Of a DNA stretch of 64,000 bases, positions 3,655 through 49,411 are shown piece after piece (positions within the stretch are counted from its first letter, which is position 1; every line of letters starts with the position of its first letter). Below the pieces are notes generated by a model that was given only the letters and a program-made list of their open reading frames with translations, was not told the DNA's origin and did not search any database. The translations under genes and the position numbers were made by a program. The stretch is from an uncultured Chloroflexia bacterium. Its GTDB lineage: Bacteria > Chloroflexota > Dehalococcoidia > UBA2979. The stretch covers positions 544,001 to 608,000 of the forward strand of contig CAVSIV010000001.1 of assembly GCA_963728205.1 (NCBI GenBank), in the 5' to 3' direction.

Positions 3655-3673
3655 TGTCGCGGGAGGTGCGCTC

Positions 3674-9736: not shown

Positions 9737-9775
9737 CTGCGCGCGGCGCGACGCGCGCGGCGAGGGGAGACGGCG

Positions 9776-10176: not shown

Positions 10177-10656
10177 ATGCCCGGCGACGCGCACCTGCTC
10201 TCCGACATCCGCATCGACCTCCGCGAGGCGACGCTGCGACCGGTGTACGGCGTCGGCGAAGAGCGTCGGCAGGTCACCACGCGCCAGGGGCCGCGCCGGA
10301 TCGTCGACTTCGCGACCACCGACGGCCGGGACAACCTGGGTCAGGCCGTCGCGCTGCGGCTCCTCACGCCGCGCGGGGAGCTGAGCGCGCTGGCGCACCC
10401 CGAGTACGGCTCCCGGCTCCACGAGCTGATCGGCCGGCCGAACACCGCCACGACGCGGGACCTCGTGCGGCTGTTCGTGCTCGAGAGCCTGCAGCGCGAG
10501 CCCCGCATCGCGCGCATCGTCGACCTCGTGATCACCGCGCGCGACACCGGCGACGCGACGGTGCGCAGCCTCGTCGACGTGGCGCTGCGCGTGCAGCCCG
10601 CGGACGCGCCGGCCGGGAACGTGGTCGACCTCGGCCCGTTCACGATCGCGCTCTAG
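10177..10656 (+). CDS. GPW/gp25 family baseplate protein
   Basis: GRDNLGQAVALRLLTPRGEL..HPEYGSRLHELIG and LQREPRI are gp25 signatures. ATG at 10177 follows the PAAR stop. Confidence 0.9.
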   Translation: MPGDAHLLSDIRIDLREATLRPVYGVGEERRQVTTRQGPRRIVDFATTDGRDNLGQAVALRLLTPRGELSALAHPEYGSRLHELIGRPNTATTRDLVRLFVLESLQREPRIARIVDLVITARDTGDATVRSLVDVALRVQPADAPAGNVVDLGPFTIAL

Positions 10657-10678
10657 CGAGCGAGAAGAGGAGCCGCCC

Positions 10679-18458: not shown

Positions 18459-20269
18459 ACGTCGACGCCGTCGCGAGCACGCCGGGCGCCGGCGCCGGGC
18501 CGCTCACCGCGCGGACGCTGCTCACCCCCGCCGGCGCCGCGCCGCGCGTCGTGTACCGCGACGTCTCGTACGTGCGGCTGGCGCCGGGTGCGCTCGCCGG
18601 GTCGCTCGCGCTGGACGCGGCCGCATGTGCCCTCGGCGGCGCCTTCACCAGCTACGACTTCGACGCGCTCGCGATCGCGGAGCCGACGCTGCAAGCCTCG
18701 ACGCGCAGCCTCGGCGGAGGCACGGTCGCGGTGGAGCTCGGCGCGCCGCGTCGCCTCCGTTCGATCCAGGTCGCTCACGGCAAGGTGCCGTCGACCGGGT
18801 ACACGCTCGAGGTCTACCGGCTCGACGGCGACACGCCGTCCGGCCAGCCGACCACGACCGCGACGAACGCGATCGAGACCGCCAACGTGGTCGGCGAGGC
18901 CGTCGTCGTCGGAGGTGCGGGCGGGGGCGACGTCGTGGCCGGGGCGACGGAGAACGCATACGTGCTCGAGGCCCGCCGCACCTTCTGGGTGGACTTCACC
19001 GATGCGCGCTTCGCGCTGCGGCTGAAGCAGCCCGGCGGGGGCTACGTCACGAGCCTTGCGCCCGGCGACGTCGACGTCGTCTCCGTGCGCAGCTACCCGT
19101 CGTCCCCGCGCGTGCGCGTCGCGTTCCCGCAGGACCCGGCCTCGCCGGTGGGCGACCCGACGGCCGCAGTTCCGGTGTGGCAGGCGGCCGGGGAGATTGG
19201 CGGCGCAGTGCCGGCGACCGCGGGCACCTTCGACGCCGCAGACGCGCTCGCCGACGCACTGGCGCGTGGCGCGGCCCGGCTGGCGGATGCCGTGCAAGCG
19301 TCGGCGTCGGCGGCGTCCCCGGTGCCGCCGCTCCCGCCGACGATCGACGTCGCGCTGGTGATCGAGTCCGACGCCCCCTGTCGCTTCCAGCCGGCGGGGT
19401 TCGCGGTCGCCTACCGCCCGGTGACGAGTGCATTCGCGAGCGGCGAGGAGAAGGCGACCGTGCGCTTCGCCGGCGCGGGCGCGGCGGCGAGCGCGCCGAG
19501 CGTGCGGCTCCCGGGCGGGGCGACCGTGGTGTCGGCCGAGCTGCGCGCGACGCCGAGCCTGCGCACCGGGCGGCCCGGCGGGGTCGACGCCGCGGCGGCA
19601 TCCGCGCCGCCCACGAGCCGCGCCGGCATCCGTGTCGGCGCCGGCCGGCAGGCGGCGCAGGTCGTGCAGCCCGACGCGGCGCTCGAGGCAACGGGGTTCC
19701 TCCTCGGCGTCATCCCGCTCGACGACGGCGTCGAGTTGCACGCCGCGCTCGTCGAGGACGCCGGCGGGGCGCCGGCCGGCCGCGTCCTCGCGGAGGGGAC
19801 GCTCGCGACGGGCGTGCCCGGGCGGCCGGCATGGCTGAGCTGGCGCCTCGACGCGCCGCTCGTCGTCACGACCGCGCGCCACTGGGTGCGGCTCGCGGCG
19901 GCCAGCGGAGAGGCGGTCTGGTTGAGCGCCGCCGGCTCCGGCCCGGCGTGCGCGCTGGCCGATGACGGCTCGACGCTCGCCACGCTCACGGACCGCGACC
20001 TGATGGTGCTCCCGGTCGTCGGCGCCGGAGCGAACGGCGGCCCGCCCGGCGACGCGGCGCCACGCCTGGACGTCGCGGGCATGTCCGTCAGCGCGAGCGC
20101 CGGCGCGGACGGCCGCCTGGTCTACGACCTGGCCGCCGCGTTGACTGCCGCGCTCACGGGGCAGCCGCCCGGCGCGGTCGTGGAGGTACCGCTGTCGTTC
20201 GCCTCGCCGGCGCCGGGTTCGCTCACGGTCTACCCGCCGCGAATCGAGTTCGAGCCAGCGACCGCGTGA
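18455..20269 (+). CDS. Hypothetical beta-rich protein of the CIS operon
   Basis: GTGA overlap with the previous stop, 604 aa, host-like codon usage. No recognised motif. Confidence 0.65.
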   Translation: MNVDAVASTPGAGAGPLTARTLLTPAGAAPRVVYRDVSYVRLAPGALAGSLALDAAACALGGAFTSYDFDALAIAEPTLQASTRSLGGGTVAVELGAPRRLRSIQVAHGKVPSTGYTLEVYRLDGDTPSGQPTTTATNAIETANVVGEAVVVGGAGGGDVVAGATENAYVLEARRTFWVDFTDARFALRLKQPGGGYVTSLAPGDVDVVSVRSYPSSPRVRVAFPQDPASPVGDPTAAVPVWQAAGEIGGAVPATAGTFDAADALADALARGAARLADAVQASASAASPVPPLPPTIDVALVIESDAPCRFQPAGFAVAYRPVTSAFASGEEKATVRFAGAGAAASAPSVRLPGGATVVSAELRATPSLRTGRPGGVDAAAASAPPTSRAGIRVGAGRQAAQVVQPDAALEATGFLLGVIPLDDGVELHAALVEDAGGAPAGRVLAEGTLATGVPGRPAWLSWRLDAPLVVTTARHWVRLAAASGEAVWLSAAGSGPACALADDGSTLATLTDRDLMVLPVVGAGANGGPPGDAAPRLDVAGMSVSASAGADGRLVYDLAAALTAALTGQPPGAVVEVPLSFASPAPGSLTVYPPRIEFEPATA

Positions 20270-20311
20270 TCACGCGGGGCCCGCGAGCCCCGCCGGATGA
20301 GGAGTCGCAGG

Positions 20312-21172
20312 ATGCCCGATGGATGGATGCCCGGCGTGGAGCATCTCCCGAACCCGGCGCACGGCTACGCGTCGCTCCCCGACGGGAGCATGCGCCCGAT
20401 CGCGATCGTCAACCACATCATGCAGGGCTTCAAACGCACCATCGATCGCGAGGTGCGGGCGGGAATCGCCGAGCTCTCCGAGCACTTCTCGATCGATCGC
20501 GACGGGAACATCACGCAGTACGTCGACATCTTCAGCGGGGCCTACCACGCCGGCCGTCTCGACCCCGGCGCGCCTCCGACCTGGCCCCGCTATCGGCCGA
20601 ACACGAACCCGAACCTCTACACCGTCGGCATCGAGCACGAGGGGTTCGCGGTGCAGCCGCTGTCGTACAAAGCCGACTACGTGTACACCGAGCAGCGCCC
20701 GTGGCCGGAGCCGATGGTGCTCGCGACGATCCGCGTCCAGCGATGGATCTTCGACACGCTCGGCGCGGCGGGAATGCCGCAGGAGCCGAGCCACCTGACG
20801 GTCATCGGGCACAATGAGATCGCGCCGATCTCACGGTTCTCGGACCCCGGTCCCCTGTGGCCGCGCGACCGGATCATCACGGCGCTGAAGCCGCAGGCGG
20901 TCGTCTCGCCGATGCCGTCGTTCACCGAGCTGGTGTACATCCGCGCGCTCGCGCAGTTCCTCGGATGGGAGAAGTTCGACTGCCAGCCGGTGCCCTGCGC
21001 GCGCGAGGCTCGCACCTACCACCTGACGTTCGAGGCGCCCGACCCGCCCGATCAGCAGCACGCGGATCTCGAGCGCCAGTACCTGCAGGCGCTCGGCTTC
21101 CAGTTCCACTACACGCGGATGCGCGTGAGCCCGCTGGAAGGGCGCCGCGGATACGAGCTCGACATCACGTAA
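20312..21172 (+). CDS. N-acetylmuramoyl-L-alanine amidase (Amidase_2/PGRP fold)
   Basis: ATG after GAGGAG. Motifs IVNH, HFSIDRDGNITQYVD, AYHAG, NLYTVGIEHEG and VIGHNEI...SDPG. No signal peptide. Confidence 0.9.
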   Translation: MPDGWMPGVEHLPNPAHGYASLPDGSMRPIAIVNHIMQGFKRTIDREVRAGIAELSEHFSIDRDGNITQYVDIFSGAYHAGRLDPGAPPTWPRYRPNTNPNLYTVGIEHEGFAVQPLSYKADYVYTEQRPWPEPMVLATIRVQRWIFDTLGAAGMPQEPSHLTVIGHNEIAPISRFSDPGPLWPRDRIITALKPQAVVSPMPSFTELVYIRALAQFLGWEKFDCQPVPCAREARTYHLTFEAPDPPDQQHADLERQYLQALGFQFHYTRMRVSPLEGRRGYELDIT

Positions 21173-21274
21173 CTGCAGTGACGCGCGGGGGCGCGCGGCG
21201 ACGGAGAACGACGCCGAGCGCGGGCGGCACGCGATGCCGCGAGTGTGCGGCCGGGTGGGTGGGAGTCGCGGGGC

Positions 21275-24200
21275 ATGCCCTACATCACGCTGGGACGCGA
21301 GGTCGTGCGCGGCACGATCTCGCGCGATCACTGGCGCGCCGACGTCACCCTGATGTGCTCCGACCGCTTCCCGGCCGGCGCCGCCGCGCGCCTCTTCGTC
21401 GAGATCCGCTGGCGCGCCCGCCGCGACGAGGGCGACGTCCCGGGGCTCCCGGAGGACGCGAAGCCGATCGTGCTCACGCTGCGCAAGCGCACGGCCGCCG
21501 CGACGGGGGACGTCCGGTTCGACGCCCGCGACGGGGCGACCACCCGCGGGTTCGTCGGCGACACCCGCGCGCTGCTCACGCTCTTCGCGCAGGCTCCCAC
21601 GAGCGGCGCAGAGCCCGACGTCGTGCTCGAGGTGCGCATCGAGGGCGACGTGGCCGGGAGCGTCCCGCTCTCGGTCGACGGCGGTGCCGCCGCGCCGGCG
21701 ACCGCCGTCGTCCTCCACGACGACACCGGCGCGGCGCCGGCGCACGACATCGTGCTGCACGAGGCGACCGTCGCGCTGCGCGCGGCGGCCGCGCCGGTCG
21801 CGCCGGGCGCCTTCCGCTGGGTGAGCGTGCGGCCGGACGCGCTCCCGCTCAGCGGCGGGCCGGAGGGCGAGCGGGTCGAGGTGCGCGGCGCGCTCGTGAG
21901 CGACGCCGTGGGCGACGCGCCGGTCTGCGTGCTGTTCACCCCTCGCGACGGCGGTCCGGCCGTGATGGCCGTCCACGCGGTCACCGTCGCGGAGACGCGG
22001 GTGCTTCTGGGCGACAGCGGCGAGGTGCCCGCGCCCGACCTGATCGGGGTCGGCGCCGGCGAGACCTTCCGCGCCGTGACGCGGCCGCCCGCGCTGGCGC
22101 AGGCGGTGTCGTGGCGCTTCGCCGCCGGGGCCGAGCGCACCCGCGTCGCCGGGCGCTCCGACCTTGCCGCCGCGCGGATCGAGGGGGTCCGCGCGAGCGC
22201 GGCCATGCACGACGTGCAGGCCGTCGCGACGATCGCGACGGGGCACGTGCCGGCGTCGCTCGCCGTGACGCATGACCTCACGGTGACGTCGGTGGTCGTG
22301 GTGCGCGCGGACGGGAGCGGGCTACCGGCGTTCGTGAACCTCGGGGAGACGGTGCCGGTGCTGGCGCGCGTCACGCCCGACGCGCTCGCTCGCGATGTCG
22401 CCTGGGCGGTGGTGCCGGGGCTCGGGAGCGCGGCCCGGGCGCGCGTGCAGCCCGTCGCGGGCGCGGACCGCGCGCGCAGCGCCGAGCTCGCGCCTGCGGC
22501 GTCCAGCGCCATCGACGCTCGCGACGACATCCGCCTCACTGCCGGCCTCGCCGGCGCCGACGGCGCGACGGTGGCGTCGACGGTCGTGTCCCACCCGTTC
22601 ACCGTGACGCTCGTCCGGCCGCTGCATCTCGCGGTGCCGCCGGCCGACCTCGCGACGTGGACGCTCCAGCAGGCGTACGGCCCGGGGACCGCCGGGGCGG
22701 CGTTCCACGACCGCGCGCTGTTGCGCACGACGGGTGCCGGGCGCGTCATCGCCGCCGCCGACGGGACGCTCTCGACGCATCCGCCCGGGGTCGGCGTGGC
22801 CGCGCCGCCCGACCCGGCGACGCCGGCCGGGCCGCCGCCGCCGGCGGTAACCCTCTACCTGCACCTGGCGCCGGCGATCCGGGACCGCGCCACCGGTTTC
22901 CACGCCCGCGCGGCGGGCCTCAACGGCGTCGCCGGCTTCGTGTACGACCACCTCGAGACGGCGTCGCTCGAGGCGGCGCTCGGCGATCTGCTCGACCGCG
23001 CCGAGGGCCCGGTCGCCGGGCTGGGCCGCGCGGAGCGCGTCGCGCTCCTGGTCGCCGGGCAGGCGACGGTCCCCGTCACGGGTGGCCACGCACTCGGTGC
23101 CGCCTCGCCGGACGGCGCCCCGGCCGGCCGCCGCGATCTCGGTCTGGGCGTGCTCGCCGACGACGGCGCCATCGACCCCGCGTTCGCGTACGACTGGATG
23201 CGCGACTTCGTCGCCGACGGCCAGCCTGCCGTGGACGCCTTTCTCGCCCTTGTGCCGCGCGGGTGGCCCGTCATTGACCCAACGCTCACGGTCGACCACG
23301 CGATCGACCTCACCGGCGACGCGCTCTACCCGATGGCCGTGCTCGCCGACCTCCGCCGGCGGTACGCGCTTACGACCGCGCAGTGGCGCACCGTCGGCGA
23401 CAATCAGAAGGCGCTCTGGCGGCGTCGGCTGCTGCGTCGCGCCGGGTTCGCGCCGGCCGGGGACACCGCGCCGCCGTTCGAGTTCGACGATCGCGACTGG
23501 CAGAACCTGTTTCAGCTGGAGGCGCTCGTCGAGTTCTACGTGAACTTCGACGACCCGCATCGGCCGCCGCCCCTCGTGGCCGGGGAGAACGAGCCGCGCC
23601 CCCCGCTGGAGGCTGACGGCGTGACGCCGACCCCGGGGTACCGGGCCATCGACCTCACCGGGGGCTGGCACATCGTCGTCGTCGACGCCTTCGGCGGGCG
23701 GCTGGCGGGCGCCGCGGCGACCGTCGCCGGCTCCGTCGTCACGCTCGACGGCGCGCCGGATCTCCGGCGCGTCAATCCCGGGTTCGACACCATCTACCTG
23801 CCGGGCGACCACGAGCGGCCGGGCGCAACCTACCGGGTCGCCGCCGCGAACCACGCCGCGTCGACGGTCACCGTCGACGGCGCCCCCGACTTCGCCGGCG
23901 GCACGTCGGCGTGGCACCTCCCGGCCGGCGTGAGCGGCGAGCTCCCCGCGCTCGCGTACAACCTCGGCCCGGGCGGGGCGCGAGGGTTCGACCACTACGA
24001 CGCGGCGCTCTTCGTCGTGAAGGACGGCGCCGTTCACGCGAAGTTCCGCTGGTCGAGCTACACGTCGCGCAACTACGCCGCCGGCAGCCAGCTCCTCTCG
24101 TCGCTGCGCGGCAACCGGCAGTACGACTTCGCGAGCTTCCGGTCGAACAGCGCCTTCATCAACTACGCGTTCAGCGTCGTCGACCACGGCGCCGCGTACG

Positions 24201-24604
24201 ACGGGGTGCGCGAGGCGCGCTTCTACTTCGCGACCCCGGTCACGGCCGACGCGGCCGCGCCGGGCGCGAATCCGAACGGCGGCGGCAAGACGCTGATCCG
24301 CATTCACAACGGCAACCACGGCAACCTCGCGCCCGGCGCGGCCGCGGCCGGCGGGACGGGATCGGCCGGGTGCATCGTGTCGCCGTCGTTCTACGACTTT
24401 CGCGACGTGATGATCACGCTCTTCCAGGCGGACCGGGTTGCCGCCGCCGGTGCGCCGGATCCGCACGTCGCGCAGCTGCAGGGCGCGGGCTCGGTGGCGA
24501 GCGGGGCACTGCTCGCCGCGAACACCGTCACCGCCGCGCAGTGGAACAACCGGCTCACCGGATCGTTCTGGGCGATCCGGCCGGACGAGCGGCCGCTCGG
24601 ATAG
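21275..24604 (+). CDS. Large modular protein: shared N-terminal module, Ig-like repeats, C-terminal L,D-transpeptidase-like (H...SxGC) domain
   Basis: 1109 aa. N-terminus is homologous to the next gene. C-terminal IRIHNGN...GSAGCIVSP, with His at 24305 and Cys at 24371. Confidence 0.7.
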   Translation: MPYITLGREVVRGTISRDHWRADVTLMCSDRFPAGAAARLFVEIRWRARRDEGDVPGLPEDAKPIVLTLRKRTAAATGDVRFDARDGATTRGFVGDTRALLTLFAQAPTSGAEPDVVLEVRIEGDVAGSVPLSVDGGAAAPATAVVLHDDTGAAPAHDIVLHEATVALRAAAAPVAPGAFRWVSVRPDALPLSGGPEGERVEVRGALVSDAVGDAPVCVLFTPRDGGPAVMAVHAVTVAETRVLLGDSGEVPAPDLIGVGAGETFRAVTRPPALAQAVSWRFAAGAERTRVAGRSDLAAARIEGVRASAAMHDVQAVATIATGHVPASLAVTHDLTVTSVVVVRADGSGLPAFVNLGETVPVLARVTPDALARDVAWAVVPGLGSAARARVQPVAGADRARSAELAPAASSAIDARDDIRLTAGLAGADGATVASTVVSHPFTVTLVRPLHLAVPPADLATWTLQQAYGPGTAGAAFHDRALLRTTGAGRVIAAADGTLSTHPPGVGVAAPPDPATPAGPPPPAVTLYLHLAPAIRDRATGFHARAAGLNGVAGFVYDHLETASLEAALGDLLDRAEGPVAGLGRAERVALLVAGQATVPVTGGHALGAASPDGAPAGRRDLGLGVLADDGAIDPAFAYDWMRDFVADGQPAVDAFLALVPRGWPVIDPTLTVDHAIDLTGDALYPMAVLADLRRRYALTTAQWRTVGDNQKALWRRRLLRRAGFAPAGDTAPPFEFDDRDWQNLFQLEALVEFYVNFDDPHRPPPLVAGENEPRPPLEADGVTPTPGYRAIDLTGGWHIVVVDAFGGRLAGAAATVAGSVVTLDGAPDLRRVNPGFDTIYLPGDHERPGATYRVAAANHAASTVTVDGAPDFAGGTSAWHLPAGVSGELPALAYNLGPGGARGFDHYDAALFVVKDGAVHAKFRWSSYTSRNYAAGSQLLSSLRGNRQYDFASFRSNSAFINYAFSVVDHGAAYDGVREARFYFATPVTADAAAPGANPNGGGKTLIRIHNGNHGNLAPGAAAAGGTGSAGCIVSPSFYDFRDVMITLFQADRVAAAGAPDPHVAQLQGAGSVASGALLAANTVTAAQWNNRLTGSFWAIRPDERPLG

Positions 24605-24607
24605 CCG

Positions 24608-24656
24608 GCCGCGCCTCGGCGCGCGTGCGCCGGGCCACGCGACGCCCGGGCGCGGC
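24608..24656 (+). terminator. GC-rich inverted repeat (possible terminator or mRNA-stabilising hairpin)
   Basis: GCCGCGCCTCGGCGCGCGTG ... CACGCGACGCCCGGGCGCGGC forms an imperfect ~20-bp stem just after the 24604 stop. No U-tract. Confidence 0.4.
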
Positions 24657-24706
24657 TATCCTGTGCCGAGGCCGGTCGTGATCCAGTGCAGGGTGAGGAG
24701 CGCGAC

Positions 24707-27700
24707 GTGGCCTACCGTCCGCACGCCGGCAGGAAGATCGTGCGGACGACGCTGACCCGCGACGACTGGGTCGCCAGCGTGACGCTCGCCTGCTCCGATC
24801 GCATTGCGGTCGGCGCGTCGTCGCCGCTCTTCGTCGAGGTGGCGTACCGCCACGAGCCCGCGCCGGGCGCCGACAGCGGCCACCCGGTCGATCTCACGTT
24901 CCGCTCGCTCGCCGCGGGCGGGGGCGAGATCCGGTTCGACGCCGCCGACGGCCCGACGACGCGACGCTTCGTCCGGCATGTCCGCACGGTGCTCACGCTC
25001 GTGGGCGTGACCGCCACCGCCGGCGCCGAGGCCGGCGTTGCGATCGATATCGCGATCGACGGGACCGTGAAGGAGAGCGTCCCCCTGTTCGTCGGCGCGC
25101 CGCTCGGCACGCTCGCGATCCGGGCCGCCGACGGCACGGCCGACGCGCCCGCGGAGGTCACGCTCGGCCAGACGCTGCCGCTGCGCGCCGTGCCCGACCC
25201 CGCCGCGCAGGGGACGTATCGCTGGATCGTCGTGACCGAGGACTCGCTCGCGGCCCACGGCGCGACCGACGCGGCCGCCGTCGTGCTCGGCGTGACCGGC
25301 GGCGCCGCGCTGCCCCGCACGGTGGGCTGCCTGTTCTCCCCGCCCGACGACGGTCCGCAGGTGTTCACGGTGCGCGCATTCGGCGTCCGCGCGACGCTGC
25401 TCGTCCGCACCCGCCTCGTCGGCACCGCCCCGGCACCGCTGGACGACGCCTGGGTGTACGTCCGCGACGGCGGCACGACCGTCGTGCTGCACACCGACCG
25501 CCGCGGCCGCGCGCGCTCCGCGCCCACCGGTTCCGAGCGCGCGGCGTCGTGGCTCTATACCGAGCCCTTCGGCGCGACCGCCGGCCACCCCGTGGAGATT
25601 GCCTTCAGCCGCGGCCGGAAGCCGATTCCCGACACACTCGTGCAGGCCGAGCTCGCGTTCCGGCGGCTCGACGTCGCGGCGGAAACCGCCGACGGCGACC
25701 TGGTCGGCGCGGTCACGATCCCGGAGACGCCGCTCGCGTTGACCCGACCGGGCGAGCTCACGATCTGGCCGTTGCTGCGCGAGCTGCCCGTGGACGCCTC
25801 GCTCACCGCCGGCCTCAACCAGGGCGCGGCGCTCTACGACGCGCACGGCAACCTCACGGAGCCCGAGGGCACGGTGGCGGCGCCGCCGCCGGCGAGGCCG
25901 CGCGAACGCGGGCTGGTCGTGGCGGGCACGGTCGATGCCGGCGCGACCGGCGCGCGCGTCCGGCTGATGCGCGACGACGGCACCGCGCTGCCGCTGCACG
26001 CCGGGTTCGCCGCCGCCGCGTCGGTGCTGGAGCTGCCCGCGACGATGGGCGCTCCGGCCGGGGCGACGCGGCCGTTCTCGGCGCTCATCGTGCTCGACGA
26101 CGCGGCCGCCGCATTCGGGCCGGTGCTGATCGTGGTGGACACCGTCGGGATCGCCCCGCCGCGCGTCGACGCCTTCGCGGTCCAGCTCTGCGGCGTGCAG
26201 CTCGCACTCGTCGACGACGCCGTCGCCGCCGCCGACGGCACACACGCCGGCCCGGTCCCCGGCGAGCCCGACGAGCTGAACACGATCGACTTCGGCCTGT
26301 CGCCGCAGGACAACCGCAACGACCTCACGCTCCAGGCGCGCGCGCGGCGCATGGTGAACTACGACATCCGCACGGGGACGCGCGCGTTCGACGAGACGGC
26401 GGCCGTCGGCCCCGGCAACCCGAACGTGCCAAAGCCGCAGATGCCGCTGTGGATGGGCGAGTGCCAGCTCGTCGGGATCGGGTGGGCGGATCTGCAATCG
26501 CTGATGCGCCACCGCGTGGCCTGGGTCAGCCGTGCGCCCGCGTGGTCGACGCTGGAGCTCAATCTCTCATGGCGGATCGAGCTGCGCTGGGACGGACCCG
26601 ACGTCAACTCGCCCACGTTCGCCGGACCGCCAGAGCTCATCCTGCGGTCGGGGCAGACCTACCAGTACAGCCTCGCGCTCGGCGGCGATGCGGCGCTCCG
26701 GGTTCCGTTCGACGCGCAGGGACGCCCTCTCGACGCCACCGGGGCGCCGCAGGCGCTGGATCACGGGGCGGTGCCGGCGCCGTTCACCGCCGCCCCGGCG
26801 CGCATCGCGTACCCGGTTGCCGCGCGACGGCTGCCGCGCCTCGTCGTGCAGGGCGAGCAGCGTGCGTGGGGACGGCAGGCCGGCGCCCCCCGGCGGGACT
26901 CCGTGATCGTCGAGTTCCAGCCCCGCGTCGAGGCCGGCGGCAGCGAGGCGATCCGCGGCGGAGATGGGGATCTCGCGCTGCAGAGCCTGCAGATCGATGG
27001 CGCCGCCGCCCCGCCGGGGCTCGAGCCGGACGGCGGCGGGGCGCCGGTCGCGCCCGCGGACGTGCGGCCGGCGCGCGTGCCGACGTTTCGCGTGCGCGGC
27101 ACCAACCCGGCGGCGCACGCCGCGGTCGAGCAGCTGATCGACGCGCTCGTGCGCCAGTACCACGACGCGCACGCTGCCGAGGCGCGCATCGCCACGCTCC
27201 CGCTCGCCGTCTGGCAGGAGACGGTGCGGCTGATCCTCGCGCACGAGAACGGCAACGACCGCCAGTTCTTCGACAACGCGAGCGGCCGCTACGCGTTCGC
27301 GTCGCGCGGCACGACCTTCTACTACGGGCACGAGCACCGCATGCCGTTGTTCGGCCCGCCGCACGGCTACGGGTTCGGGCAGCTCGACTTCGTGTTCGGC
27401 CGCGCCGCGAACGACGACGAGGTCTGGAGCTTCGTCGAGAACATCCAATCCGCGGTGCGGGTCGTGATGGAGGAGAAGGCCGCGGCCGCCTACCACGACA
27501 TGCACGGGCACTTCGCCGCGCCGGTCTCGCGGCGCGACCGGGCCGCGTACCGCCGCGAGGTCGTGCGGCGCTACAACGGCGGCACGGAGTTCCACTGGAA
27601 CGGCGCGGACTGGGAGATCCAGCCGGGCCTCGCGCAGTGGGCCAACGCGCACGATCACACGCAGGGGCCGAACCAGCGGCTGCGATACCCGCGACCGCGT

Positions 27701-27812
27701 GCTCGGCACCCACGTCGCCTACTACAACCCGTATCCGGCCGGCGCGGGGGCGGCGACGACGTTTCCGTGGCCGATCGCGTTCGCGGTCGGCCAGTTCGGC
27801 CCGGGGATCTGA
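24707..27812 (+). CDS. Large modular protein: shared N-terminal module plus C-terminal lysozyme-fold/lytic transglycosylase-like domain (+1 frameshift near 27692)
   Basis: GTG after GAGGAG. C-terminal LILAHENG..RQF, GYGFGQLD, WSFVENIQSA and RRYNGG follow the SLT motif order. After ...RLRYP the GC3-rich frame shifts and reads DRVLGTHVAYYNPYP...QFGPGI to TGA at 27810-27812. Confidence 0.7.
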
Positions 27813-27834: not shown

Positions 27835-28191
27835 TCAGCGGATGTGGATGTCCCGCCCGCCGCTGATGTTGATGTTCGTCTTGCCGTGCTGCACCACGTT
27901 GCCGCTGCCGCTCACGCTGATCGCCACCTGCTCGGCGTCGCGCGCGAGGGCGGGGTCGGCCGCCAGCGCGTGCTCGATGGCGGAGCGAATGCGCGGCTCG
28001 TCGTCCTCGTCCGTGCGCGTCTCAGCGCTCGCGCCGGCGGCGCCGCGGATGCGGTCCCAGAGCACCCCGAGCACATGCGCGCCGGCGTCGCCGACCCGTT
28101 CGGCGAGCTCGTCGCGCACCCGTTCCGCCGGGCGCCGTGCGAATGTCAGCAGGAGCGGCGCCAGCGCCGCCGCGATCTCGGCGATTCCCAT
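27835..28191 (-). CDS. Small helical protein (Bell-like) with a C-terminal amyloid/RHIM-like motif
   Basis: MGIAEIAAALAPLL...LWDRIRG...AIEHALAADPALARD followed by SVSGSGNVVQHGKTNINISGGRDIHIR. Confidence 0.7.
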   Translation of the reverse strand: MGIAEIAAALAPLLLTFARRPAERVRDELAERVGDAGAHVLGVLWDRIRGAAGASAETRTDEDDEPRIRSAIEHALAADPALARDAEQVAISVSGSGNVVQHGKTNINISGGRDIHIR

Positions 28192-28225
28192 GTCGCACCC
28201 CTCTCTCGGCCCATGCGGCGCCGGC

Positions 28226-28738
28226 TCAGTCCAGCGGCGAGCGTCCGCGCGCACGGCGTCCCGCCACCGACCGCGGATTGACGAGCGCGCGCACGAGCGA
28301 GCCGACCACCATCACGACGAAGCCCGCGAAGAACAACGCGCCGCCCACCGCGATACCCGGCGGGAAGCCGTCGGCCGCATCGCCGTGTGGCAGGGTGAAC
28401 AGCGTGTAGCCGAAGACCGCGAACCCCGACAACACGAGCAGGACACCCACGGTCACGATCGCGATGTAGAGCCGCGAGGGTGGCGGGTCGGGCTCGTCGA
28501 GCGCGGCGCGGATCGCCTTCGCGAGCGTCTCCGCGCTCGGCCCCTGGTAGTAGAGGTCGCCGATGCGGATGCCGCGCCCGCCGCTGATGTCGACGTTGTA
28601 GCGGCCGACCTGCACCTGGTTGTCGTCGCCGCGCACGGCGATCAGCGACCGGAGCCGATCGATGTCCGTGTCGCTGCTGCGGCCCGCCGCGATCCGGTCG
28701 AAGAGCGTGGCGAGTTCCGGGTCGACACCGTTTGCCAC
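28226..28738 (-). CDS. Two-TM membrane protein with an N-terminal EAD10-like domain carrying the same motif
   Basis: ELATLFDRIAAG..SDTDIDRLRSLI...NQVQVGRYNVDISGGRGIRIGDLYYQGPSAETL followed by two hydrophobic helices. Confidence 0.75.
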   Translation of the reverse strand: MANGVDPELATLFDRIAAGRSSDTDIDRLRSLIAVRGDDNQVQVGRYNVDISGGRGIRIGDLYYQGPSAETLAKAIRAALDEPDPPPSRLYIAIVTVGVLLVLSGFAVFGYTLFTLPHGDAADGFPPGIAVGGALFFAGFVVMVVGSLVRALVNPRSVAGRRARGRSPLD

Positions 28739-29050: not shown

Positions 29051-29943
29051 CTAAACGAGGATCGATGCGGTCAGACAGTGGAGGGAGCCACCGAGCTTGC
29101 GGGTTGGGGACGCGATGAACGTCGGCCGGAACCCGTGCTCGCGCAGCGCCGCTTCCACGATGCGCCGGTCGTCGGACGGCGTGATGTCGTAGGTCGGCAC
29201 GAGCACATGGTCCCCGATCTGCACCCAGTTGAGCGGGCTTGCGTACCCGTCGCCGTCCGAGCGCAGGGGGAGCCGGATGATCTCGAGGGCGGCGAGGGCG
29301 TTCCGCAGCAGCGCTTCGATCGCGTGGCTCACGTGCCGGTCGGCGGTGTTCGCCGGCGGCCAGCCGACGGCGGCGACGTCGTCGCGCAGGAAGCGCACGT
29401 AGATGTCCGCGTGGCCGCTTGGCTCGCGCGCGAACGGTGGAAACACCAGCCAGCGCCGAATGCCGAGGGCCGGCGCATGCGCGTCGAGCGCCGGGCGGTC
29501 GAGCGCATTGTCGATCAGCACGGTTGCCGTCGAGAGCGCGACGCCGGCGGGACCGGCGACGACATTGCCATGTGCCAGCACGAGTGCGCACGGCTCCATC
29601 TCCCACGTGCTGATCTTCGCGAACACGCCGTCGTCGCCCGCGCGCCCGAAGTCGGGCAGACGAGGGAGAACCCACCGGATCTCCCCCGATGCGTCGTCGC
29701 GCAGCGGGATCGGCGAGCGATCGCGAATCCACGGGTGTCGTACGACGCCCCGAGAATGGAGAAGCGCTCCGGTTGGGCCTGTTTCGCGACGAACGCGCGA
29801 GCCCGGGCCGGGTCGGGCGTGATGAGGATGACCCCGACGTCGCGGGATGCCTCGACGGCGACGCGGCGGAGGAGCGGGAGCAACTCAGTCTCCGCGAACG
29901 GGACCATGAGCGCCGCCGGCTCAGCGTAGTCGGGCACGATCAC
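29051..29943 (-). pseudogene. Agmatine/peptidyl-arginine deiminase family protein, frameshifted at ~29733
   Basis: Motifs DT/PWIRD (split by a 1-nt deletion), HGNVV, GHADIYVRF, SPLNW and GGSLHCLT. The GTG start overlaps the upstream stop. The indel could be a sequencing error. Confidence 0.75.
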
Positions 29944-35974: not shown

Positions 35975-37138
35975 TCAGGGGCAGGTCGTCCCCTGGACCT
36001 CGCATCCGTTGGAGAAGTTGCCATCGCAGTCGATGAAGCCCGGCGCACACGCGACGATCACACAGTTGCCATTGGTGCACCCGGTGCTGGCGTTCGGTGC
36101 GAAGCAGACATTGCCGCAGCTGCCGCAGTTGTTCGGGTCGGTCGTCAGGTCGAAGCCGTTGTCGACCACGCCGTCGCAGTCGTCGTCGAGTCCATTGCAC
36201 ACCTCGGGTTGCGGAAGCACCTCGCCGAGGCACGCTCCCCACTGGCCGGTGCTATCGCAGATCTGGGTTCCGCTCCGACAGATGCCGACGTTCGCCGTTC
36301 CAGCCGGACCCGAGTAGCAGGGCCGTGTCGCGCCCGGGGTGCAGACGCCGGTGGCCACGCAGGTTCCGCTCACGCAAGCCTGGCCGCTCGGGCAGGCAGC
36401 GCCGCAGGACCCGCAGTTGTTCACGTCGGTCGACGTGTTGACGCACACGCCGTTGCACAGAACTTCGCCGGCCGGGCACTCCTGCACGCACGTGCCGTTC
36501 TGACACACTTCCGCCGCCGGGCAATCCGCGTCCGTGGTGCAGCCGACGCACACGCCCGCGCCGTTGCAGGAACCGGCCGGGCAAGCCGTCCCCGCGGGTG
36601 CGGGAGCGAAGCCGCACGTCCCGCTCACACAGGTGGCCGTGAGGCAGGGGGCGGTGGACTGCGCGCAGTCGGCCGGTGTCGTGCACTGGCTCTGAACGCA
36701 GGCGCCGTTGGAGCACGTTGTCCCCGCGGCGCAGACGGTGCCGCAGGCGCCGCAGTTGCTGTTGTCGCTCTCGGTGTCGATACACGCGCCGTTGCACCAC
36801 GTCTGGCCGGTGGGGCAGACGGGGTTGCACGTGCACGTGACCTGGACGCACACGCCGTTGCGGCACACCGAGTCGTGGGAGCACGAGTTGCCGCACGCGC
36901 CGCAGTTGTCGCTGTTCGAGGTGAGGTCCCGGCACAACCCGCCGCATTCGGTCAGCCCGGGCGGGCAGCCCCTGCCGGGCGGCGATGGCGGAGGCGCCGC
37001 CCAGGCGGGCTTGCCTCCCAGCACCGTTGCGCCGACGCCGATGCCCAGGGCAGCGAGGGCTCGGCTCAGCATCCTGCGCCGTCCGATGCCCTCGGGCTCG
37101 GCCACAGCTCGGGCCAGGTCGTCGAAGCGATTACTCAT
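35975..37138 (-). CDS. Tat-signal cysteine-rich repeat protein
   Basis: GIGRRRMLSRALAALG...AWA leader. 54 Cys by hand count, four NCG[AS]CG units and one EVCNGLDDDCDGVVD motif. Confidence 0.85.
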   Translation of the reverse strand: MSNRFDDLARAVAEPEGIGRRRMLSRALAALGIGVGATVLGGKPAWAAPPPSPPGRGCPPGLTECGGLCRDLTSNSDNCGACGNSCSHDSVCRNGVCVQVTCTCNPVCPTGQTWCNGACIDTESDNSNCGACGTVCAAGTTCSNGACVQSQCTTPADCAQSTAPCLTATCVSGTCGFAPAPAGTACPAGSCNGAGVCVGCTTDADCPAAEVCQNGTCVQECPAGEVLCNGVCVNTSTDVNNCGSCGAACPSGQACVSGTCVATGVCTPGATRPCYSGPAGTANVGICRSGTQICDSTGQWGACLGEVLPQPEVCNGLDDDCDGVVDNGFDLTTDPNNCGSCGNVCFAPNASTGCTNGNCVIVACAPGFIDCDGNFSNGCEVQGTTCP

Positions 37139-38625
37139 GCTGATACCTCAACTCGCTGGTCCTGCAGGAGGGCCAGAACGGCGGGGGCGCCGACGCTCAG
37201 GCCACTGGCGACATGCCCGTCAGGGTCGACCCGCACCGCGATCGGTGTGCCGCCGGCGCCATAGGACGACATGACCGCGCCCGCGGCGTCAAGCAGCACG
37301 GTCGAGGCGAAGCCCTGGGCCGCCGTCGCCGCCGCGTCTCCGGTGGTAACGACCAACAGCTCGGGTGCGCGGGACGCGCGGCTCCGCTGCTCCCAGGACA
37401 GCACGTCGGGCAGCATGCGCTGGCAGAAGCCGCAGCCGGGGTTCCAGAACAGCAGCACGACGTCGCGGCCGCGGGACTCTGACAGCGCGACTTCGCCGCC
37501 GCCTATCGTGGGCAGGCGGAAGTCGGGGGCGAGGGCGCCGACGCGCAAGCCCTGCGGTGATGGCGCCGGAGCCGCCGCCGGGGCCGGGCGGAGCTGCAGC
37601 GGCACTCCCCTCGTCACCCGCTCCACCAGGGCCGTGATGGCCGGCCCACCCGACGTCACCGGCGACGCGATGTGCCCTCGGACGTCGACGAGTACCGCGC
37701 CGGGCGTGCCGTTGTAGCGGTAGGCGGTCGCCACCTGGCGATTGGGGTCGAGCAGGACGTCGGCCAGGCCGTGCTCGGCCGCCTTGGCCCGGTTCTTGTC
37801 GACCGCGCCGCTGCTGACGAGGACCACCCGCAGCCGGTTGGCGTGCTCACGCTGCCAACGCGCGATGTCGGGCGCGAGCGTGGTGCACGGGCCGCAGCCG
37901 GGGTCGGAGAACACCAGCAGGACGGGCTTGCCTCCGGTCCGCAAGCCGGCCAACGTCACGGTCGCTCCCTGCAGGCCCTCGAGCGAGAACGAAGGGGCGT
38001 CCAATCCGACTGGAAGGCCGTCGGACTGGGGGTGCTGGTGGGGCGGAGCGGGCTGGCCGGTCGCCACCGCCGGTCGCTGCTCGAGCTGCTCAACTCGGCG
38101 CAGGAGGCGGCCGTGCTGGCGCAGCAGGAGGAACAGCGCCCACGTCTGCGCCCCGACCACGCCGCTGAGCACGGTCAGCGCGCTGCCGACGACGAGTTGC
38201 GTCGCGGTGAAGTCGGTCAGGCTGCGCCCGCCGCCGGAGGCGGCCACCGCGGCAGCTGCGGCGAGCAGCGCGGCGTTGCGCATGAGGCTCCAGCCTGAAA
38301 TCGGCCCATTCGAGAGGGCGCCAAAGCAGTTGCAATCCGGCCGTCGGCCGCGAGCCAGGTTGACGGCCAGCAGTCCGCTGAAGGCCAGGAGAGCCATCGC
38401 GCCGAGGATGCCCGCCAGCCGAGCGGTCGAGGCCGGGATCAACAGGATCGCGACGGCCAGCTCGAAGACGGGCAACCCGACGGCCGCTACGCCCGCCAAC
38501 GGACCCGGTACACCCAGCTCCGTCGCAGCCCGGCGGGTTCCGACCCGGTGGTTCGCCTTGGCCGCGCCCGACACTGCAAACACGGCGGCAAGCACGAGCC
38601 TCAGCCCAAGCATTCCCGTCGCCAT
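37135..38625 (-). CDS. MauE/DoxX membrane domain fused to two thioredoxin-like (MauD/TlpA) domains
   Basis: LRLVLAAVFAVSGAAK and PDCNCFG (MauE). GLPVGLDAPSF..FSDPGCGPC and GLRVGALAPDF..FWNPGCGFC redoxin domains. Confidence 0.9.
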   Translation of the reverse strand: MATGMLGLRLVLAAVFAVSGAAKANHRVGTRRAATELGVPGPLAGVAAVGLPVFELAVAILLIPASTARLAGILGAMALLAFSGLLAVNLARGRRPDCNCFGALSNGPISGWSLMRNAALLAAAAAVAASGGGRSLTDFTATQLVVGSALTVLSGVVGAQTWALFLLLRQHGRLLRRVEQLEQRPAVATGQPAPPHQHPQSDGLPVGLDAPSFSLEGLQGATVTLAGLRTGGKPVLLVFSDPGCGPCTTLAPDIARWQREHANRLRVVLVSSGAVDKNRAKAAEHGLADVLLDPNRQVATAYRYNGTPGAVLVDVRGHIASPVTSGGPAITALVERVTRGVPLQLRPAPAAAPAPSPQGLRVGALAPDFRLPTIGGGEVALSESRGRDVVLLFWNPGCGFCQRMLPDVLSWEQRSRASRAPELLVVTTGDAAATAAQGFASTVLLDAAGAVMSSYGAGGTPIAVRVDPDGHVASGLSVGAPAVLALLQDQRVEVSA

Positions 38626-38950
38626 GCGTCCGCCTTCGGCCGATACAGCCCCGTCGTGGTGGCGCCGCATGCTAGCAACGCCTCAGCCCCCTGCCAACAA
38701 CGCACCGCGACGCCGCCGCGTTCTCGGCGATTCATTCGCGTCCGTCGCCACGACGACAACGGACGCAAACGGCCGCTTCGAGCGGTCGTCGACACGCTCC
38801 TCCCGGCCCCCTGCCCCAGCAGCATCAGTCAGTACAATCTGGCCGCGCACGTGGTCGCACTTCGAATGGCCGAAATCGACTTCCCGCTCGGGTAGGCTCA
38901 CCCTTGAAGCAACCCGGATCATTCTGTGCGAGGTCCGCAGGGAGCGCGAC

Positions 38951-49409: not shown

Positions 49410-49411
49410 GG

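What the first reader, a model, noticed from the sequence alone, without database searches (positions are those of the whole stretch)
27835..28738. Two-gene module sharing an amyloid/RHIM-like motif: membrane receptor plus Bell-like effector
Seen: the upstream 2-TM protein has NQVQVGRYNVDISGGRGIRIGD near its N-terminus (~28557-28622). The next small helical protein ends in NVVQHGKTNINISGGRDIHIR (~27838-27900). The DNA is also similar (ggatgccgcgcccgccgctgatgtcgacgtt vs ggatgtcccgcccgccgctgatgttgatgtt). Established: bacterial amyloid signalling pairs put one motif at the C-terminus of a helical Bell-domain effector and a matching one at the N-terminus of a neighbouring NLR; EAD10-type domains act as homotypic adaptors in conflict systems. 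Inference: here the partner is a small membrane protein instead of an NLR. This suggests an envelope-sensing prion-like cell-death switch. It directly abuts the CIS operon and could even supply the missing lysis trigger.
Basis: partly seen in the sequence, partly recalled or inferred. Interest (0 to 1): 0.75.

Follow-up and report, generated by a model that had tools for sequence, protein, structure and literature searches.

The report
Shared-motif membrane and helical protein pair
Two adjacent small genes share a short beta-strand motif that is the core of a known bacterial immune adaptor domain (EAD10) and resembles RHIM-like amyloid signalling motifs, but the partner carrying the full domain is a two-pass membrane protein instead of the usual NLR-type ATPase.

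Summary
Gene A (28226-28738, minus strand, 170 aa) has a full N-terminal EAD10 domain (Pfam 60.9 bits) followed by a two-helix membrane hairpin. Gene B starts 34 nt downstream (27835-28191, 118 aa). It is a predicted four-helix protein whose low-confidence C-terminal tail is a truncated copy of the EAD10 beta core. The shared motif is homology, not chance (0 of 5000 shuffles), and occurs only twice in the 64 kb.

B belongs to a small family with the same build. A's membrane module recurs in a ~206-aa family, where it is fused to a B-like helical N-terminus. Three cyanobacterial plasmid loci show the same layout, with a caspase carrying the C-terminal core motif near an N-terminal EAD10 protein. 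In one of them that partner is a multi-pass membrane protein. By eye the core resembles published BASS3 (RHIM-like) motifs.

Not shown: amyloid behaviour, which protein acts first, envelope sensing, or any link to the neighbouring contractile-injection genes, which lie on the other strand. No orthologous pair was found elsewhere.

Verdict: a new variant of a known kind (EAD/BASS-type coupled pair with a membrane partner). Interest 0.55.

The parts
28226..28738 (-). Gene A, 170 aa: N-terminal EAD10 domain plus a C-terminal two-helix membrane hairpin
   Evidence: ORF. GC3 0.90. Pfam EAD10 E 1.2e-16. AlphaFold model with mean pLDDT 76.5.
28508..28717 (-). EAD10 domain of A (residues 8-77): two helices, a three-strand beta core, one helix
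   Evidence: Pfam PF19954, 60.9 bits, profile positions 6-75 of 77. Model: H7-17, H23-32, E40-44, E47-51, E57-61, H69-81, with the strands at pLDDT 58-64. Close to cyanobacterial EAD10 domains: SW 181, 148 and 119 against about 26 +/- 5 for shuffles.
28559..28630 (-). Shared motif, copy in A (residues 37-60, GDDNQVQVGRYNVDISGGRGIRIG)
   Evidence: A motif HMM scores it 60 bits.
28397..28480 (-). TM helix 1 of A (residues 87-114)
   Evidence: Hydropathy. AlphaFold helix at pLDDT about 90. Part of the module homologous to the P0001 family: hhalign 98%, E 2.9e-13.
28280..28360 (-). TM helix 2 of A (residues 127-153), followed by an Arg-rich tail
28198..28207 (-). Ribosome-binding-site-like GAGAGAGGGG, six bases before B's ATG
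   Evidence: Read directly from the sequence.
27835..28191 (-). Gene B, 118 aa: four-helix body with a hydrophobic N-terminal helix and a C-terminal motif tail
   Evidence: ORF. AlphaFold H3-18, H22-53, H64-78, H80-95, with the tail 97-118 below pLDDT 50. Full HMMER search gave 10 hits at E <= 0.001, of which 6 (P0002-P0007, 113-136 aa, E 4.9e-25 to 2.7e-5) end in the same motif and 5 of those also begin with the same hydrophobic helix.
28138..28185 (-). N-terminal hydrophobic helix of B (residues 3-18, within GIAEIAAALAPLLLTFA)
   Evidence: Conserved in 6 of the 7 aligned family rows; P0006 lacks this segment.
27838..27909 (-). Shared motif, copy in B (residues 95-118, GSGNVVQHGKTNINISGGRDIHIR), ending at the stop codon
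   Evidence: Pfam EAD10 profile positions 31-57: 23.7 bits in the whole protein, 27.0 bits for the tail alone. Motif HMM 55 bits.

Best explanation
A and B form a two-gene unit coupled through a shared EAD10 / BASS3-like beta motif.

Shown:
- A is an inner-membrane protein. Its EAD10 domain and Arg-rich tail are expected to face the cytoplasm, held by a two-helix hairpin.
- B is a small soluble helical protein with a hydrophobic first helix. Its low-confidence C-terminal tail is a truncated copy of A's beta core.
- The same layout recurs in EAD10 loci elsewhere: an effector with the core motif at its C-terminus next to a partner with full EAD10 at its N-terminus.

Inferred:
- The two motifs stack homotypically, most likely by amyloid-like templating, as shown experimentally for Bell/NLR BASS pairs and for Bab/Agp.
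- Clustering of A in the membrane nucleates the fold and converts B's tail. This brings B to the membrane and releases its N-terminal helix, so the membrane is permeabilised.
- The outcome is regulated cell death or abortive infection.
- In this scheme A takes the place normally held by a STAND/NLR or TGP sensor.

The ~206-aa P0001 family carries a B-like helical N-terminus and A's membrane module in a single chain. It looks like the all-in-one counterpart of the split pair.
For: - A is a bona fide EAD10 protein and B's tail matches the profile's central part.
- The A-B similarity is beyond chance and also extends into the helices before the motif: 44 against 23.6 +/- 4.3, 1 of 3000 shuffles.
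- The genes are collinear with a 34-nt gap and B has its own RBS.
- B's motif lies in a tail below pLDDT 50, outside the helical body.
- B's family: 6 relatives of 113-136 aa end in the same motif, and 5 of them share the N-terminal helix. Two more distant hits carry other G/N/Q-rich tails.
- Only two motif copies occur in 64 kb.
- All 3 cyanobacterial EAD10 loci inspected hold a caspase whose C-terminal tail hits EAD10 profile positions 28-62 (22.3, 20.0 and 12.9 bits). It lies adjacent to or within three genes of an N-terminal full-EAD10 protein. That partner is a NACHT or P-loop protein in 2 loci and a multi-TM protein, 12 nt downstream, in 1.
- A's 2-TM module is homologous to the P0001 family (hhalign 98%, E 2.9e-13).
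- That family's N-terminal helical region aligns in register with B's: score 28.1 against column shuffles of 13.1 +/- 2.3, max 19.6, 0 of 40.
- BASS3 instances printed in the supplement of PMC8086366 (README: C03 == BASS3) read ...GKYNVAISGGQGNQVGD..., against A's GRYNVDISGGRGIRIGD.
- Literature read as passages or sections: EADs are proposed homotypic coupling adaptors, often with the second copy in the adjacent gene (PMC7159879). BASS pairs form prions and fibrils (preprint 10.1101/2020.01.06.895854, abstract and sections 5-7 and 9). Bab/Agp uses such a motif for abortive infection (preprint 10.1101/2024.11.07.622273, section 4).
Against: - No orthologous A+B pair was found anywhere, so conservation of the linkage is untested.
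- A was the only EAD10 protein with this 2-TM module. All 25 of the 71 hits whose sequences were read are P0001-type over the part they cover (5 are N-terminally truncated), and none has an EAD10 N-terminus.
- In A's monomer model the motif folds as a three-strand meander between helices, at pLDDT 58-64. EAD10 may therefore be a small globular adaptor rather than an amyloid former.
- Pfam RHIM gave no hit, although HMMER's filters drop most hits above E of about 0.1.
- B's fold matches no solved or viral structure, and no Bell profile was available.
- A has no evident sensor domain.
- P0001-family genes stand alone beside unrelated neighbours in 3 of 3 loci. The 2-TM module could therefore be an effector rather than a sensor or anchor.
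- The BASS3 likeness is by eye only.
Confidence: 0.5

Rival explanations
1. Both A and B are effectors (a 2-TM membrane perforator and a helical pore former). [quoted passage not shown] This is the general EAD model.
For: Kaur et al. list EAD10 among the EADs that 'primarily recruit other effectors', and say further copies can lie elsewhere in the genome (PMC7159879, passages). In the Nostoc plasmid locus several EAD10 proteins (caspase, CHAT, NACHT, NTPase) sit together. A's 2-TM module gives weak hits to membrane-effector-like families (Saf_2TM E 0.24, DUF7937 E 0.0021). P0001-family genes stand alone like self-contained effectors.
Against: No third motif copy and no NTPase with EAD10 occurs within the 64 kb. 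The rest of the genome could not be seen. A-B similarity extends beyond the core, consistent with a local duplication that couples these two proteins specifically.
Confidence: 0.25
2. A is a membrane toxin or effector and B is its regulator. B caps or sequesters A's EAD10 through the shared motif (antitoxin-like), or chaperones it.
For: The unit is compact, co-oriented and has a 34-nt gap. B is small and soluble, with no segment above the TM hydropathy threshold.
Against: B's conserved hydrophobic N-terminal helix and its Bell-like build fit an executioner better than an inhibitor. In the 3 analogous loci the protein with the C-terminal motif is an effector (caspase).
Confidence: 0.1
3. The pair is an accessory of the neighbouring contractile injection system (membrane adaptor, firing or lysis trigger).
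For: The pair lies next to a PAAR / baseplate / amidase cluster. Streptomyces CIS needs a membrane protein, CisA, for firing and cell death (PMC12237407, abstract and passages).
Against: The pair is on the opposite strand in convergent orientation, so it is not in the same operon. A is unlike CisA, which is 468 aa, single-pass and has a periplasmic domain. The cluster has its own Amidase_2 gene. No co-occurrence data exist.
Confidence: 0.07
4. The pair is a non-conflict function: a membrane-anchored scaffold and a soluble partner that co-polymerise for a housekeeping or developmental role.
For: Nothing specific. No defence-library hit was found (PADLOC, 0 families for 5 of 5 proteins).
Against: In the literature EAD10 is described only in conflict systems. 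The analogous loci carry caspases, CHAT and NACHT proteins.
Confidence: 0.05

Closest known systems
EAD10 (Pfam PF19954) effector-associated adaptor domain of NTP-dependent conflict systems (Kaur, Burroughs, Iyer, Aravind 2020, 2021)
   Same: A carries a full, terminal EAD10 with predicted mixed alpha+beta character. A second, related copy lies in the adjacent gene, as in the 'EAD coupling' principle.
   Different: No core NTPase, vWA or TGP component with EAD10 occurs in the window. The second copy is only the beta core plus divergent helices. The full copy is fused to a 2-TM hairpin.
Bell-domain / NLR gene pairs with bacterial amyloid signalling sequences, especially BASS3, the RHIM-like family (Dyrka et al. 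2020)
   Same: A 118-aa helical protein (just under the published ~120-140 aa) with a hydrophobic N-terminal helix and a C-terminal motif of about 24 residues. It is matched by an N-terminal motif in the collinear neighbour, with a short intergenic gap. The motif is rich in G, N, Q, V and I and lacks P and L. The core reads like the first two-thirds of printed BASS3 instances.
   Different: The partner is a 170-aa membrane protein, not an NB-ARC/NACHT protein. Gene order is partner first. In A the motif is embedded in a 70-residue domain with flanking helices. The ...HNTQxNxF end of BASS3 is absent. Bell homology is not demonstrated.
Bab/Agp abortive-infection pair of E. coli ECOR25 (BASS11; Ibarlosa et al. 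2024 preprint)
   Same: A small Bell-related protein whose N-terminal helix is needed for killing and which has a C-terminal amyloid motif. It is activated by an adjacent protein carrying the same motif at its N-terminus. TGP proteins of this architecture can carry EAD10 in that N-terminal slot (Kaur 2021).
   Different: Agp is a 1094-aa TPR-GreA/B-C-PIN sensor. The motif family (BASS11) could not be compared, because figures and supplements were not available.
Calothrix sp. PCC 7716 plasmid p4: caspase plus EAD10-multi-TM protein
   Same: An effector with the core motif at its C-terminus, directly followed (12 nt) by a protein with N-terminal EAD10 and membrane helices. The two motif copies share the same insertion variant.
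   Different: The effector is a caspase. The membrane protein is 407 aa, with about four hydrophobic segments and a ~200-aa Asn-rich tail. The gene order is reversed.
P0001 family
   Same: The same 2-TM module (FGYTLFT ... PPGI ... FFAGFV). Its N-terminal helical region aligns in register with B's, and a conserved N/Q/G-rich segment lies just before the membrane module.
   Different: All parts are in one chain. There is no detectable EAD10 (hhalign E 0.096 against A 1-85). The genes stand alone.

Membership tests
EAD10 (PF19954) | Profile match above Pfam's gathering score | tested here: met
   A scores 60.9 bits against 24.1, covering profile positions 6-75 of 77. B as a whole protein scores 23.7 bits, just under the cut-off, but its last 41 residues alone score 27.0 bits, covering only positions 31-57.
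EAD10 (PF19954) | Terminal position in the protein, with a second copy in an adjacent gene (EAD coupling) | tested here: met
   A's copy is N-terminal and B's is C-terminal. The genes are 34 nt apart on one strand.
EAD10 (PF19954) | A cognate copy on a core sensor or regulator (STAND NTPase, vWA-MoxR/VMAP, GAP1, TGP) | tested here: not met
   Within the 64 kb there are only two motif copies, and none of the 38 ORFs scanned is an NTPase carrying EAD10. The rest of the genome cannot be tested.
Bell/BASS-NLR amyloid signalling pair | [quoted passage not shown] | tested here: met
Bell/BASS-NLR amyloid signalling pair | The partner has NLR architecture (NB-ARC or NACHT plus repeats) | tested here: not met
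   A is EAD10 plus two TM helices, with no NTPase domain.
Bell/BASS-NLR amyloid signalling pair | The small protein's body is homologous to the Bell domain | tested here: inconclusive
   Its size (118 aa, just under the ~120-140 aa described), hydrophobic first helix and helical-bundle model fit the description. No Pfam, PDB or Foldseek hit was found. The Atlas gives only a lead: 6 of 30 hits belong to the HetE-N family set, which 11% of the listed cluster's members carry, score 0.92. No Bell profile was available.
Bell/BASS-NLR amyloid signalling pair | The motif belongs to a described BASS family | tested here: inconclusive
   The likeness to BASS3 instances in the supplement of PMC8086366 was judged by eye.
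Bell/BASS-NLR amyloid signalling pair | The motif forms amyloid or prion and cross-seeds | not testable with these tools
   This needs ThT, electron microscopy, ssNMR or foci assays.
RHIM (Pfam PF12721) | Profile match, and the I/V-Q-I/V-G core tetrad | tested here: not met
   RHIM was not listed for A, B or the canonical EAD10 proteins, even at E <= 10, although HMMER's filters drop most weak hits. A has IRIG and B has IHIR. The relative P0003 and the Nostoc EAD10 have IQIG.
SAVED-fused 2TM / other named TM effector modules | Profile match | tested here: not met
   Saf_2TM E 0.24 (11.7 bits against 29.5). DUF7937 E 0.0021 (17.4 against 31). PADLOC gave no hit.
CisA (CIS membrane adaptor of Streptomyces) | A single-pass protein of about 468 aa with a periplasmic solute-binding-like domain, encoded after the baseplate genes on the same strand | tested here: not met
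   A is 170 aa with two TM helices and an outside loop of about 12 residues, and lies on the opposite strand.

The most novel reading that the evidence does not exclude
A minimal, NTPase-free amyloid-type death switch. A two-pass membrane protein nucleates a RHIM/BASS3-like fold when the membrane is perturbed. It then converts a Bell-like executioner encoded next to it. As a corollary, the EAD10 'adaptor domain' of the Aravind classification and the BASS3/RHIM amyloid motif of the Saupe/Dyrka classification would be the same module. The C-terminal, sub-threshold core copies on caspases and other effectors would then be its overlooked effector-side half.
Probability: 0.22. Interest if true: 0.75.

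Novelty: new variant of a known kind. Interest (0 to 1): 0.55.

Why it matters
Known bacterial amyloid-signalling pairs use large cytoplasmic sensors (NLRs or Agp). A pair whose motif-bearing partner is a 170-aa membrane hairpin would show that the same coupling logic can be driven from the membrane. It would also be a very small system in which to test how templating is triggered.

The data further suggest that Pfam EAD10 hides a BASS3/RHIM-like core. Truncated C-terminal copies of this core score just under the Pfam cut-off here, on B and on three cyanobacterial caspases. Profile-based annotation therefore misses the effector side. In the paper library searched, only two papers contain both 'EAD10' and 'amyloid'. 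The passages of those papers that I read do not equate EAD10 with an amyloid motif.

Tried and rejected
- **Complex prediction.** Complex prediction on A(1-85) with B(60-118), each with its alignment, gave no verdict: score 0.00 against a mark of 0.32, with the partner's own fold uncertain. This is not evidence either way.
- **Fold and structure searches.** Foldseek of the B model against PDB and BFVD, and of the A model against PDB, gave nothing below E 0.4. A sequence profile of the B family against PDB gave nothing.
- **Defence and sequence-pair searches.** PADLOC returned 0 families for 5 proteins. BLASTP of A against B found no alignment; the signal needs Smith-Waterman or an HMM.
- **Genome scans.** The first scan of genome contigs with B-family patterns had 598 pattern matches and 0 relatives. 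A first attempt with a broader alignment was rejected for lack of a conserved stretch.
- **Plasmid and phage searches.** tblastn of B against plasmids and phages, and of A against phages, found nothing.
- **P0001 mid-motif.** hhalign of the P0001 family against A's EAD10 part gave nothing (E 0.096). I do not claim that the family's mid-motif is EAD10.
- **Other checks.** The promoter/terminator scan found 0 sites. Rfam gave only a chance-level miRNA hit. There is no GC anomaly around the pair. The held supplements of Kaur 2020 do not contain 'EAD10'.
- **Left unchecked.** bioRxiv supplements and figures (BASS logos, BASS11 alignment) could not be seen.
Full report
**1. Observation**

The window has 72.9% G+C. 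On the minus strand lie two ORFs with high third-position G+C (0.90 each).
- A is 28226..28738: 170 aa, GTG start.
- B is 27835..28191: 118 aa, ATG start, preceded by GAGAGAGGGG six bases upstream. A's stop and B's start are 34 nt apart.

Over the 24-residue core, 13 of 24 residues are identical and 12 of those 13 use the same codon. The repeat finder lists the corresponding 85-nt direct repeat (27838-27922 / 28559-28643, 74% identity) as the top repeat of the region.

The similarity is not chance.
- Smith-Waterman A vs B scores 82. Shuffles give mean 30, sd 5, max 62 (0 of 5000).
- The core alone scores 63 against 21 +/- 4.4 (0 of 3000).
- The helices before the core alone score 44 against 23.6 +/- 4.3 (1 of 3000), pairing A 8-33 with B 40-72.
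- Default BLASTP saw nothing.

**2. Anatomy**

A:
- Residues 8-77 match Pfam EAD10 (PF19954) over profile positions 6-75 of 77, at 60.9 bits against a cut-off of 24.1.
- The AlphaFold model was built on alignment A6 (18 rows). It gives two helices, three short strands (40-44, 47-51, 57-61; pLDDT 58-64), one helix, then two long helices (87-114, 127-153; pLDDT about 90) and an Arg-rich tail.
- Hydropathy agrees with two TM segments.
- With no signal peptide and a positively charged tail, both ends should be cytoplasmic. This topology is an inference. The outside loop is about 12 residues.

B:
- The AlphaFold model (alignment A2, 7 rows) gives four helices (3-18, 22-53, 64-78, 80-95; pLDDT 75-88) and a tail (97-118) below pLDDT 50 that carries the motif.
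- Helix 1 is hydrophobic (mean KD 1.86) but not TM-like by the 19-residue window.
- B's tail matches EAD10 profile positions 31-57. It scores 23.7 bits in the whole protein and 27.0 bits when the last 41 residues are scanned alone.

B is therefore a hydrophobic N-terminal helix, helices partly alignable with EAD10's, and the EAD10 beta core. It ends at the stop codon without EAD10's last helix.

**3. What the motif is**

A's EAD10 is canonical. Against the first 80 residues of three cyanobacterial plasmid proteins, Smith-Waterman scores are 181, 148 and 119, with shuffles at about 26 +/- 5 (0 of 1500 each). The core reads N.[IV]Q[IV]G[KR]YN[VI].I..G..I.IGD in those proteins and in A.

Kaur et al. 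describe EAD10 as a small, non-enzymatic domain of predicted mixed alpha+beta character. They propose that it couples components homotypically, often with the second copy in the adjacent gene (PMC7159879, passages). They also found it at the N-terminus of TPR-GreA/B-C-PIN proteins (PMC8195603, passages). The E. coli protein Agp has that same architecture. It carries at its N-terminus an experimentally validated amyloid motif, BASS11, shared with the small Bell-related protein Bab (preprint 10.1101/2024.11.07.622273, section 4 and passages).

The supplement of PMC8086366 prints BASS instances, and its README maps class C03 to BASS3, the RHIM-like family. Several C03 entries read ...[GA]KY.V......G[VI]Q[VI]GD... 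One reads GKYNVAISGGQGNQVGD, against A's GRYNVDISGGRGIRIGD.

This likeness is by eye. I could not build a profile from those sequences. Pfam's RHIM model did not appear for A, B or the canonical EAD10 proteins. In the paper library only two papers hold both 'EAD10' and 'amyloid', and the passages of those papers that I read do not equate the two.

**4. Relatives**

The B family:
- The word-index search for B found nothing.
- A full HMMER search of 1.84 billion representatives found 10 proteins at E <= 0.001.
- Six of them (P0002-P0007, 113-136 aa, E 4.9e-25 to 2.7e-5) end in G..N.VQ.G..NI.I.GG..I.IG. Five of these also begin with the same hydrophobic helix (M[GD].AE.AA.LAP.L..F); P0006 lacks it.
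- Two (P0009, P0010) have a similar body but other G/N/Q-rich tails.
- Two long proteins are repeat-driven hits.
- The tails of the six close relatives hit the middle of the EAD10 profile. One is above the cut-off (P0007, 26.5 bits).
- The ESM Atlas places B at 0.94 among unnamed Actinomycetota clusters of about 120-137 aa. 24 of its 30 hits fall in the set without a Pfam family and 6 in a set where HetE-N is carried by 11% of the listed cluster's members. This is a lead only.

The P0001 family:
- The word-index search for A found one protein, P0001, sharing only the membrane module.
- Searching with the A+P0001 alignment gave 71 proteins, mostly about 206 aa.
- I read the sequences of 25 of the 71. 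All are of one type over the part they cover, and 5 of them are N-terminally truncated. None has an EAD10 N-terminus.
- The type has a hydrophobic N-terminal helix (MPIDGGLVVGYLTAALL...), helices, a nearly invariant N.VYAQMNVQAFDHG.A.G segment, and then A's 2-TM module.
- hhalign of this family (54 rows) against A gives 98% probability, E 2.9e-13, over A 94-156.
- Against the B family it gives only 22%, E 9.7e-4. The match covers 66 columns with the N-terminal halves in register. The score of 28.1 exceeds 40 of 40 column shuffles (13.1 +/- 2.3, max 19.6) and the reversed control (14.6). MAFFT also aligns the two families collinearly.
- I read the family as a probable single-chain counterpart of the pair (B-like body plus A-like membrane module). 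Homology of the N-terminal part is suggestive, not established.
- Its middle segment is not detectably EAD10.
- In the three genome loci recovered (Acidimicrobiales/Actinomycetota MAGs), the gene stands alone among unrelated metabolic or transposase genes.

**5. Is the pair linked elsewhere?**

No orthologous pair was found.
- The B-pattern scan of 185,579 species genomes gave 0 relatives.
- Plasmid and phage tblastn gave nothing for B.

Analogous pairs do exist. tblastn of A against plasmids hit 5 cyanobacterial records. I inspected 3 of them, and all 3 hold a caspase whose C-terminal tail matches EAD10 profile positions 28-62, below the cut-off (22.3, 20.0 and 12.9 bits).
- Nostoc pn3: the caspase is followed by EAD10-NTPase, EAD10-NACHT and EAD10-CHAT genes.
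- Tolypothrix: the caspase lies two genes from, and on the opposite strand to, an EAD10-P-loop gene.
- Calothrix p4: the caspase is followed after 12 nt by a 407-aa protein with N-terminal EAD10 (69.6 bits), about four hydrophobic segments and an Asn-rich tail. The two motif copies share the same insertion variant.

So the layout 'effector with C-terminal core, partner with N-terminal full EAD10' recurs, and a membrane protein can be that partner.

**6. Surroundings**

A motif HMM finds only A (60 bits) and B (55 bits) in all six frames of the 64 kb. The next hit scores 2.5 bits. None of the 38 larger ORFs scanned is an NTPase carrying EAD10.

Upstream of A there is a 310-nt gap and a PAD_porph-like gene (29054-29884, minus strand).

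Downstream, a plus-strand cluster converges on B. It holds a PAAR protein (9737-10168), a baseplate wedge protein (10532-12448) and an Amidase_2 / endolysin-like protein (20270-21169). It also holds large ORFs without family hits. Its last gene stops at 27810-27812, about 22 nt from B's stop. The pair is thus not in the CIS operon.

A does not resemble CisA, the 468-aa single-pass CIS adaptor of Streptomyces (PMC12237407, abstract and passages). The proposed CIS lysis-trigger role has no support beyond adjacency.

**7. Mechanism**

Shown:
- There are two co-oriented genes.
- One is a membrane protein whose EAD10 domain should face the cytoplasm.
- The other is a soluble helical protein whose exposed tail copies the EAD10 core.
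- The same layout occurs in recognised conflict loci.

Inferred:
- The two cores associate homotypically. By analogy with BASS pairs, they probably do so through templated beta stacking.
- This recruits B to A at the membrane and activates B's body. B's conserved hydrophobic first helix then inserts, with membrane damage and cell death as the output.
- A takes the sensor/nucleator place.
- Its trigger is unknown. A change in membrane state that clusters A is the simplest guess.

I give the whole scheme 0.5. Within it I rate coupling through the motif at about 0.7, amyloid-type templating at about 0.4-0.5, and A acting upstream of B at about 0.35.

The main rival (0.25) is the general EAD model. 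There, both proteins are effectors docked to an EAD10-bearing NTPase encoded elsewhere. The other rivals are a toxin-regulator pair (0.1), a CIS accessory (0.07) and a non-conflict scaffold (0.05).

Points against my reading:
- A's core is modelled as a small meander within a domain, not a free tail.
- There is no RHIM or Bell profile hit.
- A has no sensor domain.
- Conservation of the pair is untested.
- P0001-family genes look self-sufficient, so the 2-TM module may itself be the membrane-active part.

**8. Comparison and novelty**

The pair works like a Bell/BASS-NLR or Bab/Agp pair, and it is a member of the EAD10 domain family on A's side. It fails the NLR-partner criterion of the BASS pairs and the core-NTPase criterion of EAD systems within this window. 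Bell membership is undecided.

I file it as a new variant of a known kind. Its interest lies in three points:
- the membrane partner;
- the possible single-chain relative;
- the hint that EAD10 and BASS3/RHIM-type motifs are one module, whose effector-side copies escape Pfam thresholds.

**9. Limits**

- The complex prediction gave no verdict (see Tried and rejected).
- Figures and bioRxiv supplements (BASS logos, BASS11 alignment, Bell alignments) were not available.
- The source genome beyond 64 kb is unknown.

Noticed in passing
window 27600-27812 (+): The last plus-strand gene of the CIS-side cluster changes its high-GC3 frame near 27650-27700. It ends ...FGPGI* at 27810-27812 in a frame different from the long ORF 24605.., which runs on as an antisense artefact to 28777. 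This is a probable frameshift (real or a sequencing error) near the gene's 3' end.
   Followed up: partly
P0001 and 70 further proteins; loci L003:1545-2159, L004:5001-5615, L005:5001-5618: An unnamed family of about 206 aa in Acidimicrobiales/Actinomycetota MAGs. It has a hydrophobic N-terminal helix, helices, a nearly invariant N.VYAQMNVQAFDHG.A.G segment and a 2-TM module. No Pfam family matches (5 of 54 members give weak NNH1 hits, best E 0.044). The genes stand alone, and in L005 they lie between transposase genes.
   Followed up: partly
L002:3955-6209 (Calothrix sp. PCC 7716 plasmid p4): A caspase with a C-terminal EAD10-core tail is followed after 12 nt by an EAD10 protein with about four membrane segments and an Asn-rich C-terminal region. 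The two motif copies share an insertion variant (..IG.IG.A....G).
   Followed up: partly
L001:925-10307 (Nostoc sp. UHCC 0926 plasmid pn3); L006:4238-6618 (Tolypothrix sp. PCC 7712 plasmid): Caspases carry sub-threshold C-terminal EAD10 core copies (22.3 and 20.0 bits against a cut-off of 24.1) within two to three genes of full N-terminal EAD10 on NTPase, NACHT and CHAT proteins. Pfam's cut-off misses these effector-side copies.
   Followed up: partly
window 20270-21172 (+): An Amidase_2 / endolysin-like gene sits inside the PAAR-baseplate cluster, among very large ORFs (130-3651, 3506-7879 with NHL repeats, 18269-20266, 21182-24601, 24605-27690) that have no phage or CIS family hit.
   Followed up: no
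window 48936-50023 (-): An Hcp-type tube protein gene (T6SS_HCP, E 4.4e-40) lies about 20 kb from the baseplate cluster, next to a Dirigent / allene-oxide-cyclase-like gene.
   Followed up: no
window 35978-38682 (-): A protein with three Stig1-like cysteine-rich stretches lies next to a MauE-double-thioredoxin/AhpC fusion protein.
   Followed up: no
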